64,000 nucleotides of DNA, from the IMG/VR virus record IMGVR_UViG_3300044510_000078; one strand, 5' to 3'. The position numbers were made by a program. The first letter of the stretch is position 1, and every line of letters starts with the position of its first letter. The DNA is from a virus. Shown piece after piece: positions 1-27,000 of the stretch.

Positions 1-3000
1 ACGCCCCACGAAATTGAGAATATTGTTTGTTACCAGTAATTCATTGATTGTCGTTCTGCTGGCAATGGCAAAATCATAATGATTTGTAGCCTTATTGGAT
101 GTAATTAGGGCGGGCTCCGCCTTTATTGAGGTCTGTTGGATAGAAGAACACCCCAAACAAAAACAGGCGAGACTAACTAGCATTATGCACCCGAAGCGCA
201 TCGAATAATTTACACAAAATTAATCCACTTCTACCGGATTCACCGGAACATTACTGATGCTTTCAGGTTCCTTTAATTGAGTATTAAAGGTCTTGTATTC
301 CTTGATTAACCGAAGCAACAACTTGACATTCTTTGGCGGATTTGAGGAAATCGGGCTTTTCTTAGCTGTGCTTCCTAATGCTCTTTGGACGCCGAAATAT
401 TCATCCAATTCATACATAGTCCATAACCATTCAGATTCGTTCTCCAATTCCCATAATAACACCGTAATTTGCGACCAAAGTTGTTGGGAACGAGCCATAC
501 GAACGTAGGGAGGGAGTGGCACATTTATACAAACCTCTTGTATATCCTTGGGCTTTCGGTGCTCCAATGCCATGTAAGATGATAGGAGATTATTCCTATT
601 TTATCTAAACTAAGGGTATGCGGGCGAGGCTTTATAAATAGCGATATCTTAAAAGCACTTTTTACGAGATGGGCTCGGTGGATATTTTTGAAAATTGATA
701 AAAACGCATATACCCTTTCTCATTTTTGCGCAATAATCGAGGGGGGGGTGCTAATGTATGTTATAAGTGACATAAGAGGCTTATTCGTCTCGCATATGGG
801 GCGTATTGCTGTCGGAGCTATAAGGCATATAGAGAGACATAAAGGAACGATGTGCCGGGCCATAGATAATGTATTTAATATGATTTAGTCGCGGCGCATC
901 ATTAAGGACATTAAATAGAATAGATTATGAAAGATATGTGCCATCAACGCATAATCGGACGCATATTAGGACATAAATACTTTAAAAACGAATAAATTGG
1001 CATATCGGGGTGATTCTATCAATTTTTACTCATGATTGGGTGGATATTCGATTAGAAAACATATAGAGAAACAAATACTTTACAAATGGATAATTCAATA
1101 TACCATTTCATTTAGAATTTAGCCCCCCGCCGTCAATTTTTTGTGTGCCCGCGCCCGTGAAATCGAATAATCGGCCCCCCCCTCCTACCTTTGGCACGCT
1201 TCCTGCTGTCATCCTTTAACGCTAAAGGATGGCCCCGCCGTTGCCCGTGGCGGCGTTTTGTTTGCCAAAGAGAACCCATTCGCTTTTCGCTCTAACGCAT
1301 TGCAAACAAGCAACTTGCGCGGATAGGCCGAAAAGTTGTGCTGTCCCTATACTGTCAAGGGGTCCCGATGCGCTAGCGGGCATCCTAGCGCGTTTGCGGG
1401 GGTGTTGTTTTTTATACAGTATGCTCGAAAGGATACAAGGCGGGAGCGTTAATCCTAAGCGATGCACTTAGGTTACGCGGGATTCGCCCTTAAAGCAAAA
1501 GCCCCGCCCTTACTAGGGGCGGGGCGTGAAGGGTGCGGGTTTTAGGCTACGCGCCGCACCGAAGCGCGGTGAGGTTGTCAAGCGCGACGTTCAAGACAAC
1601 GGGCCTTTCCCCGCTGCCCGTTTCGCTTGCCAGAAGCAACGGCGCGACGATGGACTTTTCGACACGCTTGCCGTTCAAAAACCACACGGCGGCGAACTTG
1701 CTGCCCGCCGTCACGTTAAGACGGGCGTAAAGTTTGCCCGTTTTGTCGGCGCGAAGGATACGGGGAAAGACTTCCCAAGTGAAGCCCCGCAAGCCCGCGT
1801 TTTCAGCGGGCAAGGTTCCATCCTCGCGCCCCTCGCGCACCACGGCGCGGTTATCGTATGCCACGCCAAACGTGAGCGAATGAGCCGCCACGCTCTTTTC
1901 GACAAGGGCGGAAACCCCCTTGCGGGTTTTCGCCGGACGCCGCCAAGCGGCGGAGATAAAAGCCCCGCCGGGAGCCGCGAGAAGTTTTTCAAGAGTTTTC
2001 ATCGGGTTACTGTTCGCGCCCGTCGCTTTCGTCGCGGGCTTGTTTATGCGAACGCGGACACTTTAGCAGGTTCGGCGCGTGAGTCAATAGGGGCGATGCA
2101 CTTTTTTTAACTTTTTTTTATGCCCCGTGCAAGTGATTGAACGCCAATCACCTACACGGGGCGACGTGCTACGCTCGCGCCGCGTCGCGGGCGGCAAGGG
2201 CTTCGCCCGCCGCATAAAGCGGAGAATTCTCCGCAAGCGAATTGTCCGGGGCTTCGTCCGCTCCGCCCGCCGCATACGTTCCGCCGTAGCGGGCTGCAAT
2301 GCGGGCCTCTTGCCCGTAGGTTTCGGGGCTGTTTTCCAGATAGGGCGTGACGCCGTTTCCCGCCCGTTCCCACGCAAGGGCAATGTCAGCCGCCTTGCGG
2401 CGAGCGTCCACTGTCAGGGCAAGCCAAGCGGCCATGCGCCGCCCGTAGGCACGGGCACTCGCCCTATCCGCGAGGGAAACGCGCGCCCCGATAGGGCGCG
2501 CAAGGTTGCGTTGAAGGTTTTTAATGGCGAGTGTTTGCATGGCGGACAGAATATCAAAAGCGCGGGGGTTGTCAATAGGGCGGATGCACTTTTTTTTAAC
2601 TTTTTTTATGCGCCGTGTAACCCCTTGCGCCGCAAGCGTTTAGCCTTCGTCCCGGTAATCGTCCGCCTCGCGCAAGTTGTAATCGGCGAAGTCATCACTT
2701 CCGCCGCCATCACCCGGCCAACCGCCGCCGTCGTAAGGCGCATCCTCGATTTCCGTGCGCGCTTCGTAAGCGGCTTCAAGGTGCGAATCCTCGCCGCCTT
2801 CGTGACTTTCAACTTGCGCTAACCGCGCTTCCGCGCTTTCCGCGCTCAACTGGTCAAAGGGATTTGTCATGCGTTGAATTTAGGGGTTTTTCCCCGTCCC
2901 GTCAAGCCCCTATTCGCTTTCGTCCGCGTCTGCTTCCGGGTCCGCCGGGGCCGGGGCGTCGTTAAGTATCCACTTCGCCGCCTTGCTCGCCGCGCCCGCC

Positions 3001-24000: not shown

Positions 24001-27000
24001 CCAAACCTTTTGCAGTAATGGCGCGACCAGAAGTTGTGATTTCCAGAAGTCCCATCTTTTGTAGATATAATTCCACGTCTTTCTGCAAGGCTTCTTTGGT
24101 CATTCCAATACTTGCGCTGAGACGAGTAAGGCTCGTTTCCTTGCGCGTGGCAAGCAAACGAAGAACCTGCAATTCGATATTCGACAAGCCTAGCGGCAGA
24201 ATTCCCAACGTGCGACGGAGAGAAATCCAATCAACCTTATCAAAGGTCGTTTTCTTTTGGCCGCATAGATAGGTTTCAATGTTGCTGCTCTTTTTCTGCG
24301 CCTCACGCGCATTACCACGACAGGCCGTAGCGATTTCATTCAAGAGTTTAGCCTCGATTGGAGTCTTGATGTTGCGTTTAATCATCTCTGCCAAGTGAGA
24401 AGTGTTATATTCTTCAAGCTCAACTCGGTCAAGCCTGTCCATCAGCGCATGAAACACCTTATGAGATTCAGAAGTAGCGAGGATAAAATTTTGACGCTTA
24501 AAGTCGAAATCCACCGTATAATCATCATAACTAAAACTCGTCCTGTTCGTGTTATTCGGATTTAGAATCGTCAGCAACGCCATCGTCACATCACGCGGAA
24601 TTTCAGACGCCTCATCGAAAATAAGAGTGCAATCTTTGTCATTGACAAACGGAATGATAATTTGGTTGAAGAATTGCTTCACACTTTTGACGGTCGAGCA
24701 ATTGATTTCATACCAACGCTTTTGTTCGCCGCGAGTTCCGGCGATGTTCTTCATCTGTTTAGCAAGCTCACGCGCAATCATTGTTTTACCGCAGCCCTTC
24801 GGCGCGATAAGCAATGAGTGAGGCATAATGCCGCCGTTGCGGTAAGCGTCCAAGAGAAAGTTTAGCTTGGACTTAACTCGGTCTTGACCGACGATGGATT
24901 CAAAAGGAATTTCCGGTGTCGTTACTGTCGGGGTTGTTGCTGTCATGTTACAAATACTATACCAGAGCCTTGCGGGAAAGTCAACTGATTTAAGTCACCT
25001 AATTAAAAAACAATTAAATCAATTAAAATAAAACTCTACCTGATAACTCCCCTTATCAAGTTTGTTGACGCTGAAGCAACACGCGACTGGCAAATCCTTT
25101 AACGCTTTTGCGGAAACAGATTGAGCGGCGCGTTTTGCATTGGAGTAAGAAGAATAATTACGGCTCTTAAACCACTTATTTATTTCGTTTTTGATATGGG
25201 TAGGAATCAACATAAGAACAAAAAAGCAGCAAGGGGAAACCCTGCTGCTGTGATTGATTGGTTTTAGCTTACTCGCCAGTAACAACGCCGACAGGAGCTT
25301 CGACCGCTGGTGCGGGAGTTGCCGCGACCACAGCGACAACCTGCTTGTCGTCTGCTGCGCCTTCCTTCACTTCGACGTTGGCCTCAATGGTGGCTCGCTT
25401 CAAAGTGACCATTGCGGGAGCAGTCTTCCCGACAAGACCGATACCGTCCGCCCACTTTTTGCTTACGACAACGGAAGCTGTTGCGTTGACCTTCTCCGTA
25501 AGTTCAGCAAGCGTCACTACGACGAAACTGAAGCTACCCTTTTTACGACCGCGATTTTCTGCTTTGTTCATATTTGATTTTTGTTGTTTAACTTGATACC
25601 AGTTTAAGGCTTTTTTGTGAATTAGTCAACATTTTTTTCTGAAAAAAAGAGGGCCATCTTTGGATGCTTCTCGAAAGTTTCAGAGTTATTCATGTAAGAT
25701 TCAAGCCTGTCGCGCACTTCTGTTAGGTCGCTGGCGTCCATTATTTCGGCGATGTGGTCGTATATTTCGCCGTCAGACAGGGCGATTCTAGCCGCTTCAA
25801 AAATCTCAAGTAGTTGTTCGTCAGTGAATGGGTGTTTCATTTTTATTTAAAATGACCAAGTTTTTATCCAAATGGCGACAGATATAACAAGGGCAACTAT
25901 ACACATCCACGTTTCGCCAGTTGTCGCCAATATCCAACCGCCGAAAACAACCGCGACAGCGAATATAGTAAGAAGAATACGATTCCACTTGATATACCGA
26001 ATAGTAGAATTCAATAATGCTCTAATATGTTTATTCAACGTCTGTAACAGTTAAAGTTTCAACCCAAGTTTCCCCACAGTTTTCACATGAAACCACCCTA
26101 CCAAGAGGTTCATTGTAGTCAAATTCTTCGCTCGTTATATCGGCCCCCTTACAGTAGGGGCAATGATTGGGGTCTTTAATGTATTTGGATTTTTGGGCTT
26201 TTGTTAGCATATTATTTGAATTTTAGCGCAACAAGATTTGAACTTGTAAAAACTTAAAAGTATTCTGACAATCCGGCATCAGAAACTACCAAGTGTTTCG
26301 TTGGTTACGACTTCGCAGCGTCTCTCCGATTCCGCCATGCGCTAATTTTATTTTACGAAAACTTTTTTCCCGTGTCAAGATATTTACTCATCAATCCAAA
26401 CACAACAGCCAATCCAAAAAACCATTTAGCAACACTATATTTGGCAGCCAACAAAGTCGTAGCCCCCAACATATTGAAGAAAACAGAAATCGGCCCAGCT
26501 AAAGCAAACAATACAAACATCCCAACACTTATTAAAAAATATAAAATAATCCACCCAAAAATACAAGCCCCTTTAAAGGACTCGATGGAACTCGTCTTGT
26601 AGGTCTTCATTAGATAATCGAATCTGACTCGGCTAAGTTTATCACATCTTTGATGAACTTTTTAACGTCGGGATGAATATGTTCCTGCCCCTTATTTCTT
26701 ATAATTAAGGCTTGCATTTGCTCATTCATTTGAGAATATATCTTTTGCCACGCGGCCTCGTATCTTTTAGCCATATCATTATTTAGAACTTTTGTTGCTA
26801 TATTTGAAGATTTCAGCATAAAATTTGGGCTTATTTGCTTAAAACTCTGATAAGTATGAATCCTAAAATAGCCACAAATACAACCAAAGCCCATGCCGAG
26901 CGAGGGTCTTGGGGCCAAAAAGAAAAATAATAATTGTTAATTTGATTCATGGACTTCGGACGATTGCTCCAATGTCTAAATACAGGAAAAATAAGAAAAA

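What the first reader, a model, noticed from the sequence alone, without database searches (positions are those of the whole stretch)
2500..25000. 22-kb array of single-gene cassettes, each with its own promoter and a leaderless mRNA
Seen: about 55 TTGAC(A/G/T)-15..17-TAnnnT promoters by manual count. In about 40 the start codon (once GTG, at 17856) sits 6-7 nt after the -10 hexamer, with no room for a Shine-Dalgarno. Established: sigma70 start sites fall about 6-8 nt below the -10 box, and leaderless mRNAs can be initiated directly by 70S ribosomes. Promoter-bounded early modules are known in T4-type phages, and SPO1 has a host-takeover region. Inference: this is an immediate-early host-takeover module whose genes are almost all translated leaderless, bypassing SD-dependent initiation. 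That is an unusual design at this scale. It also corrects many ORF-track starts.
Basis: partly seen in the sequence, partly recalled or inferred. Interest (0 to 1): 0.85.

Follow-up and report, generated by a model that had tools for sequence, protein, structure and literature searches.

The report
Leaderless promoter-gene cassette array in phage
An uncultured large lake-type phage carries about 22 kb of some 55 head-to-tail mini-units, each with its own host-type promoter, and in about 42 of them the promoter sits so that the message should begin exactly on the start codon; leaderless genes and promoter cassettes are both known, but this scale and terminator-free form are unusual.

Summary
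The minus strand of 2-25 kb holds 51 strict TTGACN-15..18-TAnnnT sites. Shuffles give about 1 and the plus strand has 1. In 37 of them ATG lies 6-7 nt after the -10 (shuffles 0.035). With weaker -10 variants there are 42 such cassettes: 41 ATG and one GTG at 17856.

None has a Shine-Dalgarno-like word. Position -1 is a pyrimidine in 39/41. All abutting ATGs open ORFs of at least 41 codons. The first 30 nt are almost unstructured and G-poor. Family profiles start at the predicted Met.

There are no terminators and no promoter stem-loops, and 8 stop codons lie inside the next -35. So this is a leaderless, terminator-free variant of PeSL-type early cassettes.

A complete 172-kb relative and other viral contigs share the geometry with different genes. 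"Immediate-early host takeover" is plausible, given host-type promoters, the position after rIIA/rIIB and an ArdC anti-restriction gene, but it is unproven. "Bypassing SD" is not special to this module, because the whole lineage hardly uses SD.

This scan has noted similar arrays in other uncultured phages. About ten cassettes encode RNAs or leadered genes.

The parts
1300..24984 (-). Whole array: about 56 same-sense sigma70-type promoters at roughly 400-bp intervals. GC is 50-64% against about 35% in the rest of the window.
23607..23971 (-). Leaderless cassette, ORF 23936..23607 (109 aa). The longest-ORF call would be 207 aa.
23046..23440 (-). Leaderless cassette, DUF6915 protein (119 aa). 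Pfam profile positions 1-102 match residues 1-104.
22045..22451 (-). Leaderless cassette, 123-aa ORFan
21452..21747 (-). Leaderless cassette, 86 aa
20399..21444 (-). Leadered cassette: promoter, then a 24-nt A/C-rich leader without SD, then a DUF932 protein (328 aa)
19776..19948 (-). Leaderless cassette, 45 aa, followed by a coupled gene at 19770..19471
19005..19474 (-). Leaderless cassette, 144-aa ORFan. The public gene call uses a 239-aa upstream start.
18712..18998 (-). Leaderless cassette, 83 aa, followed by promoter-less ORFs down to 17961
17398..17890 (-). Leaderless cassette with the only GTG start (17856), 152 aa
16639..17401 (-). Leaderless cassette, DUF2786+DUF7168 protein (242 aa). 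The -35 overlaps the upstream TGA.
16394..16466 (-). tRNA(CAU) of elongator type (U1-A72 paired, no GGG/CCC anticodon stem), with no promoter of its own
14643..16387 (-). Six consecutive cassettes: leaderless starts at 16353, 15761, 15462, 15171 and 14813, plus a TTG at 16100 that lies 9 nt from the -10. Three of their stops are the TGA of the next TTGACA.
11247..13823 (-). Leaderless cassettes starting at 13789, 13497, 12761, 12265, 11842 and 11435. Coupled second genes sit at 13375 (ATGA overlap), 12547 and 12067 (TAA directly followed by ATG).
7193..10928 (-). Leaderless cassettes starting at 10895, 10578 (7 nt), 10303, 9826, 9384, 8747, 8410, 8197, 7936 and 7456. A coupled gene sits at 10115.
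2640..6569 (-). Leaderless cassettes starting at 6535, 6301, 6051, 5595, 5354, 4955, 4645, 4410, 4002, 3788 (ArdC-type anti-restriction protein, 292 aa) and 2870
2169..2575 (-). Leaderless cassette (ATG 7 nt after TATTCT), 123 aa
4993..5141 (-). Non-coding cassette: same promoter, +1 at GUCGG, a 115-nt RNA closed by a long 5'/3' helix
6575..6953 (-). Non-coding cassette with a GUCGG 5' end. The first 116 nt fold with z = -2.95.
9425..9578 (-). Promoter-driven tRNA-like RNA with a GGTTCAAATCC T-arm. The fold is not significant on its own.
10950..11272 (-). Promoter with no adjacent start codon. The transcript begins GUCGCGAG and is probably non-coding.
23972..24984 (-). AAA+/RuvB-like gene conserved in relatives. 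Its promoter is TTGACT-17-TATAGT with ATG 9 nt after the -10 (near-leaderless). It marks the syntenic upstream border of the array.
28307..31771 (-). rIIB (28307-29203) and rIIA (29573-31771), both behind A/C-rich leaders without SD. This is the conserved block upstream of the array.
60140..60588 (-). Leaderless cassette in the AT-rich part of the window (SSB-like, 137 aa)
36626..37773 (-). Leaderless promoter-gene unit in the AT-rich part (RlaP-type nucleotidyltransferase, 370 aa)
59524..60138 (-). Phage-encoded sigma factor (204 aa), the likely reader of a later promoter class

Best explanation
The 1.3-25 kb stretch is the variable accessory (early-type) region of a large uncultured phage. 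It lies directly downstream of a conserved ligase-rIIA-rIIB-AAA+ block. It is built from about 56 same-sense units.

Each unit opens with a strong host-type promoter: TTGACA, a 16/17-nt spacer carrying an A-tract and CC(C/T), then TAnnnT. In about 42 units a pyrimidine-rich 6-nt discriminator is followed by ATG. The preferred start site of a sigma70 holoenzyme is the 7th base after the -10, a purine preceded by a pyrimidine. That base is the A of the start codon. Each promoter should therefore make an mRNA that begins with AUG, and the 5'-terminal AUG would be bound directly by ribosomes without a Shine-Dalgarno contact. This last step is inferred.

There are no terminators and genes abut the next promoter (8 stop codons are the TGA of the next TTGACA), so transcripts should be nested and 3'-coterminal. 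On each transcript only the 5'-most ORF has an initiation-competent start. Each small protein's output would then be set by its own promoter despite read-through (inferred). The few promoter-less genes use stop-start coupling or unstructured A/C-rich leaders.

The cargo is mostly ORFans, plus an ArdC anti-restriction protein and DUF932, DUF2786 and DUF6915 proteins, and about ten small-RNA or leadered units. This fits an early anti-defence or host-interaction gene pool that turns over fast between relatives.
For: Promoter excess and strand bias: 51 sites against about 1; PWM 57 against 0; the general scanner finds 65 against 16.8 expected.

Fixed geometry: ATG at +6/7 in 37 of 51 strict sites against 0.035 in shuffles. 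Position -1 is C or T in 39/41, and 0/41 have SD-like words. The geometry equals the modal TSS rule (PMC5730371) and the validated 6-7 bp TANNNT-ORF spacing of Deinococcus leaderless genes (PMC12340547).

The ORFs are real. All 37 abutting ATGs open at least 41 codons (median 76), against a median of 20 for other ATGs, P about 1e-20. GC1/2/3 is 0.57/0.45/0.60.

The starts are correct. DUF6915 profile positions 1-102 match residues 1-104, and the ArdC-N and DUF2786 profiles start at the N-terminus. Homologues in 20 viral contigs begin at the same Met. The paralogue pair aligns over 77 of 78 aa.

Translation-side signals: 40 ATG to 1 GTG. The first 30 nt fold at -1.4 against -5.2 kcal/mol for inner windows, P = 6e-12. 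Codons 2-6 have 9.6% G against 29.6%.

No terminators (31 found, 30.6 expected) and no promoter hairpins (mean z -0.5).

Lineage trait: in 16 rIIB-linked relatives about half of the strict promoters have ATG at +6/7. In a complete 172-kb relative, 39 plus-strand promoters cluster at 80-135 kb and 24 of them are leaderless, while such promoters are nearly absent elsewhere. The same design occurs in unrelated contigs L021 and L025.

The region is positionally homologous but its gene content is not.
Against: Pyrimidine-rich discriminators can shift E. coli RNAP starts 1-2 bp downstream (PMC5730371). A share of transcripts could then begin at the G of ATG and be untranslatable. The host is unknown, so its capacity for leaderless translation is assumed. 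The phage encodes at least one sigma factor, so host-sigma reading and 'early' timing are inferred only from the consensus. Only one cassette (ArdC) has a predicted anti-defence role. About 14 promoters do not abut a start codon.
Confidence: 0.75

Rival explanations
1. The promoters are real, but proteins are made mainly from long read-through polycistronic RNAs. Initiation would be SD-independent at unstructured starts, or by termination-reinitiation across the roughly 30-nt promoter gap. On this view the tight promoter-ATG spacing reflects genome compaction, not leaderless initiation.
For: No terminators. The whole lineage hardly uses SD. Promoter-less genes in the array are clearly expressed some other way, by coupling or A/C-rich leaders. 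The start regions are unstructured and G-poor, which also favours internal SD-less initiation.
Against: Compaction does not explain a spacing fixed at exactly 6 nt (35 sites) rather than a spread of short distances. It also does not explain the Y(-1)A(+1) context in 39/41, or the near-exclusive use of ATG.
Confidence: 0.12
2. The roughly 40-bp element acts chiefly as a recombination joint for cassette exchange, as PeSLs do. Promoter activity would be secondary, and the ATG and TGA positions mark cassette borders.
For: Gene content differs almost completely between positionally homologous regions of relatives. Stop codons lie embedded in the -35 and ATG sits at a fixed distance, giving exact start-to-stop units. 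Recombination between PeSLs is documented (PMC2839356).
Against: No breakpoint could be placed at a promoter here, because the relatives are too diverged. The element matches the sigma70 consensus at the functionally critical positions while varying elsewhere. This rival is compatible with the main explanation rather than opposed to it.
Confidence: 0.3
3. The promoters are read by a phage-modified or phage-sigma RNA polymerase, so the array is a middle class rather than an immediate-early class.
For: A phage sigma factor gene lies at 59524-60138. The conserved spacer motif (A-tract plus CC) goes beyond what sigma70 needs.
Against: The -35 and -10 hexamers and the 16/17-nt spacing are the canonical primary-sigma consensus. 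In the relative, the regions without these promoters are the candidates for the phage-sigma class.
Confidence: 0.1
4. The GC-rich array is an assembly chimera, or foreign DNA that is not part of this phage.
For: GC is 50-64% against about 35% elsewhere. No cassette has a homologue in the 10-kb flanks of the relatives.
Against: GC changes gradually: rIIB is 0.50, AAA+ 0.45 and the left edge returns to 0.40. The same promoter type, strand and geometry continue across both compositions. DUF6915 and ArdC homologues occur in the relative's own accessory region. The cassette protein is recorded on a 197.7-kb contig and on 4 contigs in all.
Confidence: 0.03

Closest known systems
PeSL (promoter-early stem-loop) cassettes of the hyperplastic regions of T4-type phages RB49 and phi1 (Arbiol et al. 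2010, PMC2839356)
   Same: There are dozens of repeated strong sigma70-like promoters. Each sits directly before a small, mostly ORFan gene. All lie in one variable non-essential region, and gene content differs between relatives.
   Different: There is no stem-loop terminator in or near the promoter and no Shine-Dalgarno. The start codon sits at the predicted +1 instead of after a leader. The upstream stop is often inside the -35, not in an AT-rich region. The phage is not demonstrably T4-type: a complete relative has no gp23-family capsid hit.
Leaderless genes with a -10 box abutting the ORF in Deinococcus-Thermus and Actinobacteria (PMC12340547, PMC4007540)
   Same: TAnnnT lies 6-7 bp before the start codon with no SD. 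Adding a -35 at 17 bp boosts such promoters.
   Different: Those are cellular genes scattered over chromosomes, often without a -35. Here they form a phage array of about 42 consecutive units, each with a consensus -35.
Thermus phage phiYS40 leaderless transcripts (Sevostyanova et al. 2007, cited in PMC4842269 and PMC12340547; the paper itself was not held)
   Same: A large AT-rich phage in which many genes are expressed from leaderless mRNAs.
   Different: As described in PMC4842269, those promoters have an extended -10 (TGnTA); that they are the middle and late classes is my recollection of the paper, which was not held. Here the promoters have a strong -35 and no TG extension, look like an early class, and form single-gene cassettes.
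Predicted leaderless SigA-like promoters of Cluster O mycobacteriophages (PMC4351075)
   Same: Phage promoters predicted to place +1 on the first base of the start codon.
   Different: Those number two or three per genome and head long operons. This is not a cassette-per-gene array.

Membership tests
PeSL cassettes (T4-type hyperplastic regions) | Repeated strong sigma70-like promoter immediately upstream of ORFan genes, clustered in a variable region | tested here: met
   51 strict sites against about 1 expected. The array lies after the conserved rIIA/rIIB/AAA+ block. 39 of 43 cassette proteins have no Pfam hit.
PeSL cassettes (T4-type hyperplastic regions) | Stable polyG/polyC stem-loop in or beside the promoter that acts as a terminator or attenuator | tested here: not met
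   Promoter-region folds have mean z -0.5, and only 4 of 49 fall below -2. The best spacer stem averages 3.2 bp against 2.8 in shuffles. Terminator-like sites number 31 against 30.6 expected.
PeSL cassettes (T4-type hyperplastic regions) | Shine-Dalgarno sequence and start codon at the 3' end of the motif | tested here: not met
   0 of 41 have an SD-like word. The ATG follows the -10 by 6-7 nt.
PeSL cassettes (T4-type hyperplastic regions) | Gene gain, loss or exchange between relatives at the promoter copies; mini-circles | tested here: inconclusive
   Gene content differs almost completely from relatives. Breakpoints could not be located at this divergence. Mini-circles cannot be tested with these tools.
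PeSL cassettes (T4-type hyperplastic regions) | Host phage belongs to the T4 superfamily | tested here: inconclusive
   rIIA, rIIB and a ligase are present. The Gp23 family (PF07068) is not found in a complete 172-kb relative, and the control genomes gave no hit either. The AAA+ gene is not a gp44 homologue.
Leaderless mRNA genes | -10 element (TAnnnT) 6-7 bp upstream of the start codon, with no SD | tested here: met
   reference geometry from PMC12340547 and PMC5730371
Leaderless mRNA genes | Transcription start mapped at, or within a few nt of, the start codon | not testable with these tools
No RNA data.
Leaderless mRNA genes | 5'-terminal AUG preferred, with an unstructured 5' end | tested here: met
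   40 ATG to 1 GTG. First 30 nt fold at -1.4 against -5.2 kcal/mol, P = 6e-12.
phiYS40-type leaderless phage promoters | Extended -10 (TGnTA), as quoted in PMC4842269; dispensable -35 and middle/late class are from my recollection of the primary paper | tested here: not met
   There is no TG before the -10 in all but one site, and a consensus -35 is present in all. The class description comes from PMC4842269; the primary paper was not held.
Immediate-early host-takeover module (T4 / SPO1 sense) | Expressed in the first minutes by unmodified host RNAP, with products that shut off or redirect host functions | not testable with these tools
   Only indirect evidence: the host-type consensus, one ArdC anti-restriction gene, and ORFan cargo.

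The most novel reading that the evidence does not exclude
Leaderless-only initiation replaces terminators as the insulator of a phage gene-cassette system. All transcripts read through, and only a 5'-terminal AUG is initiation-competent, so each ORFan's dose is set by its own promoter. The roughly 40-bp promoter has the upstream TGA inside its -35 and the ATG at its +1. It would double as the joint at which exact start-to-stop genes and small-RNA genes are exchanged between phages, like an integron without an integrase. Having no SD, the array would also stay translatable if the phage blocks leadered host translation.
Probability: 0.25. Interest if true: 0.8.

Novelty: new variant of a known kind. 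Interest (0 to 1): 0.62.

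Why it matters
If the predicted starts are right, one phage region expresses about 40 proteins without any 5' UTR. That would be among the largest leaderless gene sets in a bacterial virus, and a natural test bed for how 70S or SD-independent initiation works in an environmental host.

It has a practical side. Standard gene callers mis-start about a quarter of these genes and miss the RNA cassettes. 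A promoter-anchored rule (TTGACA-16/17-TAnnnT-6-ATG) would fix annotation for this and similar uncultured phages.

It also extends the PeSL idea of promoter-bounded mobile gene units to a terminator-free, leader-free form. And it marks a pool of fast-evolving early ORFans, including ArdC, as candidates for anti-defence functions.

Tried and rejected
Host and environment:
- The megablast of 12 kb against phage records found nothing.
- rIIA, ligase, TROVE-like and AAA+ tblastn searches gave only distant hits, at most 46% identity, with mixed hosts.
- The GMP-reductase-like gene hit only lactobacilli at 39%.
- ArdC hit PVC-group and archaeal MAGs at 44-48%.
- The host therefore remains unknown. 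The whole genome was not held.
- The look-up of sequencing runs and the look-up of encoding contigs were closed, so no RNA reads or sample data were available.

T4-likeness: no Gp23 hit in a complete relative, so I dropped the 'T4-like' label.

Initiator tRNA idea: the tRNA(CAU) in the array is elongator-type. Rejected as a leaderless helper.

PeSL stem-loop: the G-run/A-tract/C-run in the spacer looked like a hairpin but is not significant.

Composite promoter pattern in IMG/VR: only 12 single matches, about chance level. Two of those loci turned out to be true look-alike arrays.

Cassette homologues: the 123-aa and 144-aa ORFans have none.

Breakpoints at promoters: the paralogue pair and the rIIB-AAA+ interval were uninformative.

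Rfam: only the tRNA reaches threshold.

The phiYS40 primary paper was not held.

Full report
**What is there**

The window is the early and nucleotide-metabolism part of a large uncultured phage.
- Its genes include rIIA (29573-31771), rIIB (28307-29203), an ATP-dependent ligase, a GMP-reductase-like enzyme, a dCMP deaminase, an SSB-like protein, a TROVE/DUF2828 protein and a sigma factor (59524-60138).
- No deposited phage is close.
- One cassette protein is recorded on a 197.7-kb contig.
- Nearly all genes lie on the minus strand.
- From about 1.3 to 25.5 kb the GC content is 50-64%. The rest of the window is about 35%. The transition is gradual.

**Checking the observation**

Promoter counts:
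- A strict scan for TTGACN-15..18-TAnnnT finds 74 sites on the minus strand of the window and 6 on the plus strand.
- Within 2000-25000 there are 51 on the minus strand and 1 on the plus strand.
- 200 dinucleotide-preserving shuffles give a mean of 1.0 and a maximum of 5.
- Spacers are 16 or 17 nt in 50 of the 51.

Start codon spacing:
- ATG follows the -10 hexamer by exactly 6 nt in 35 sites and by 7 nt in 2. Shuffles give 0.035.
- A PWM trained on these sites scores 57 sites at 18 bits or more on the minus strand and none on the plus strand.
- The PWM also recovers cassettes with slightly off-consensus -10 boxes (CATAAT, CATACT, CAAAAT, TTTAAT).
- The resulting table, plus the site at 2575, gives about 56 promoters. 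In 42 of them the start lies 6-7 nt after the -10: 41 ATG and one GTG at 17856.

**Are these real genes with these starts?**

- All 37 strict promoter-abutting ATGs open ORFs of at least 41 codons, with a median of 76. The 306 other ATGs on the same strand open a median of 20 codons, and 29% reach 41. The chance probability is about 1e-20.
- The ORFs show coding periodicity, with GC1/2/3 of 0.57/0.45/0.60.
- Where a family model exists, it starts at the predicted Met:
  - DUF6915 profile positions 1-102 match residues 1-104.
  - ArdC-N profile position 4 matches residue 6.
  - DUF2786 profile position 2 matches residue 9.
- Twenty viral contigs encode DUF6915 homologues that begin at the same methionine.
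- In those contigs, the ones examined sit behind an SD or inside operons, and none has an abutting promoter. The promoter-abutting layout therefore belongs to this phage, not to the gene.
- In 11 of 41 cassettes the leaderless start differs from the longest-ORF start. For the 144-aa ORFan the public gene call is the 239-aa long form.

**Does the geometry predict a leaderless mRNA?**

- For bacterial RNAP the modal start is the 7th bp after the -10 element, used about 55% of the time.
- There is a strong preference for a purine at +1 and a pyrimidine at -1 (PMC5730371).
- Here position 7 is the A of ATG, and position -1 is C or T in 39 of 41.
- In Deinococcus, where the point was tested by experiment, the TANNNT box of leaderless genes lies 6-7 bp before the ORF. 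A -35 at 17 bp boosts such promoters (PMC12340547).
- None of the 41 cassettes has an SD-like word at -18..-4.
- On the translation side, 40 of 41 starts are ATG.
  - The first 30 nt fold at -1.4 kcal/mol against -5.2 for inner windows of the same genes (Wilcoxon P = 6e-12).
  - Codons 2-6 have 9.6% G against 29.6% elsewhere.
  - All of this is expected for 5'-terminal AUG initiation, although weak structure at starts is general.

One caveat: pyrimidine-rich discriminators can push the start 1-2 bp downstream in E. coli, and many discriminators here are pyrimidine-rich. The strict 6-nt spacing argues that position 7 is the functional start in the real host, but this is inference. I could not map any 5' end.

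**Architecture beyond the hexamers**

- The spacer carries a conserved A-tract followed by CC(C/T) just before the -10.
- The same feature occurs in look-alike arrays on two unrelated viral contigs, L021 and L025.
- It is not a hairpin. Promoter-region folds have mean z -0.5, and spacer stems are no longer than in shuffles.
- Intrinsic-terminator-like sites are at background: 31 against 30.6.
- Units are packed tightly. In 8 of 41 cassettes the TGA stop is the TGA inside the next TTGACA, and many other gaps are 3-9 nt.
- Transcripts from successive promoters should therefore be nested and read through downstream units.

Not every unit is a single leaderless gene.
- About seven units have a promoter-less second ORF that starts -8 to +13 nt from the preceding stop. 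Examples are TAA directly followed by ATG at 12067, and ATGA overlaps at 10115 and 13375.
- A few genes have A/C-rich leaders without SD, such as DUF932 at 21385.
- About ten promoters have no ORF at +1.
  - Several of their transcripts begin GUCGG or GUCGC, and two of these (from 5141 and 6953) fold into closed structures (z -2 to -3).
  - Two are tRNA-like.
- A tRNA(CAU) at 16394-16466 is elongator-type, not an initiator.

**Relatives**

- Sixteen IMG/VR contigs encode rIIB at 40-48% identity. In each, about half of the strict promoters have ATG at +6/7.
- One of these contigs is a complete 171,916-bp genome with GC 31%.
  - Plus-strand promoters cluster at 80-135 kb: 39 sites, 24 of them leaderless.
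  - They are almost absent from the remaining 115 kb.
- Synteny ligase-rIIA-rIIB-small gene-AAA+ is conserved.
- After the AAA+ gene both phages have promoter-rich accessory regions with almost no shared genes.
- Only DUF6915 and an ArdC fragment recur, and DUF6915 is SD-led in the relative.

So the window's array is the lineage's hyperplastic early-type region. In this phage it is filled with GC-rich cargo.

- SD-like words are barely above the within-gene control in every part of the relative and of the window. The lineage as a whole is SD-poor.
- No Gp23-family capsid was detected in the complete relative. The control genomes were silent too, so this is weak evidence.
- The AAA+ protein is not a gp44 homologue. 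I therefore do not call the phage T4-like.

**Function**

- Of 43 cassette proteins, 4 hit Pfam and about 8 hit PHROGs.
- The named ones are an ArdC-type anti-restriction protein with its zincin domain, DUF932, DUF2786+DUF7168 and DUF6915.
- To my knowledge (not checked here), ArdC and DUF932 recur among plasmid and phage accessory genes.
- Host-type promoters, the position after rIIA/rIIB and ORFan cargo fit an early anti-defence or host-interaction pool.
- Timing and 'takeover' remain untested.

**Comparison with what is known**

PeSLs of RB49 and phi1 are the closest described system.
- They have about 50 strong sigma70-like promoters per genome, mostly before ORFans in hyperplastic regions.
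- They mediate modular shuffling (PMC2839356).
- A PeSL, however, includes a stem-loop terminator and an SD. Both are absent here.

Other precedents:
- Leaderless phage genes are known in Thermus phage phiYS40. Its promoters have an extended -10 (as cited in PMC4842269); that they are the middle and late classes is from memory, because the primary paper was not held.
- In Cluster O mycobacteriophages two or three promoters are predicted to give leaderless mRNAs (PMC4351075).
- phiKZ has no leaderless transcripts (PMC8244752).
- My full-text searches found no description of a cassette-per-gene leaderless array in a bacterial virus.

Earlier notes of this scan report look-alike arrays in several other uncultured phages, and a second array in this same genome. 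I treat those as leads. My own check of L021, L025 and the complete relative shows the design is not unique to this contig.

**Verdict**

The most likely reading is a terminator-free, leader-free variant of promoter-bounded early gene cassettes. I put it at about 0.75, and what it lacks is only a mapped start site. It is a new variant of known kinds: PeSL-type cassettes and leaderless expression. It has clear value for annotation and for the study of SD-independent initiation.

Noticed in passing
window 1300-25500: This block has GC of 50-64% (GC3 up to 0.71) inside a phage of about 35% GC. The edges are gradual: rIIB 0.50, AAA+ 0.45. The relatives show no such block. It suggests cargo, perhaps whole promoter-plus-gene units, acquired from GC-richer phages or elements that use the same promoter type.
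   Followed up: partly
window promoters (e.g. 15795, 14848, 6569); L021 4114, 4312, 4822; L025 4413: The promoter spacer carries a conserved A-tract followed by CC(C/T) immediately before the -10. This is shared with unrelated viral contigs. It is not a hairpin and not an extended -10. Its reader (RNAP or another protein) is unknown.
   Followed up: partly
window 4993-5141, 6575-6953, 10950-11272, 13005-13206; L025 8260: These cassettes have the same promoter, but +1 falls on GUCGG or GUCGC and there is no ORF. Two of them fold into rod-like or closed structures (z -2 to -3). A GTCGG cassette also occurs in L025. Nothing reaches threshold in Rfam.
   Followed up: partly
window 26224-26378 and 9425-9578: Promoter-driven tRNA-shaped RNAs with a T-arm and acceptor-like closing helix, but an expanded centre of about 50 nt. 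ARAGORN and Rfam do not call them.
   Followed up: partly
window 16394-16466: tRNA(CAU) with a paired U1-A72 and an A/U-containing anticodon stem. It is elongator Met or Ile2 type, has no encoded CCA and no promoter of its own, so it is presumably cut out of read-through RNA.
   Followed up: yes
window 21385-21420, 23018-23050, 29203-29235, 31771-31805, 25594-25629: Genes that are not leaderless have A/C-rich, G-free leaders of the ACAAACAAAAC type with no SD. SD-like words are near background across the window and the 172-kb relative.
   Followed up: partly
window 10342-10578 and 4677-4955: This is the only paralogous cassette pair (49% identity over 77 of 78 aa). Similarity starts near the ATG and fades at the stop.
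   Followed up: yes
window 2910-3788: The ArdC-type anti-restriction protein (ArdC-N plus zincin peptidase) has its nearest genomic homologues in Lentisphaerae, Verrucomicrobiota and archaeal MAGs at 44-48% identity.
   Followed up: partly
window 19005-19724: The public protein record for this gene is the 239-aa longest ORF. The promoter-anchored start gives 144 aa. This is one example of systematic mis-starts in this region.
   Followed up: yes
window 59524-60138 and 60140-60588: A phage sigma factor gene lies directly downstream of a leaderless SSB-like cassette. Its promoter class was not searched for.
   Followed up: no
L049-L057 (G001, complete 171,916-bp relative), 102807-103480: In the relative, the small genes between rIIB and AAA+ are chained by ATGA overlaps without promoters. 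The window has about 2.7 kb of extra promoter-driven units in the same interval.
   Followed up: partly
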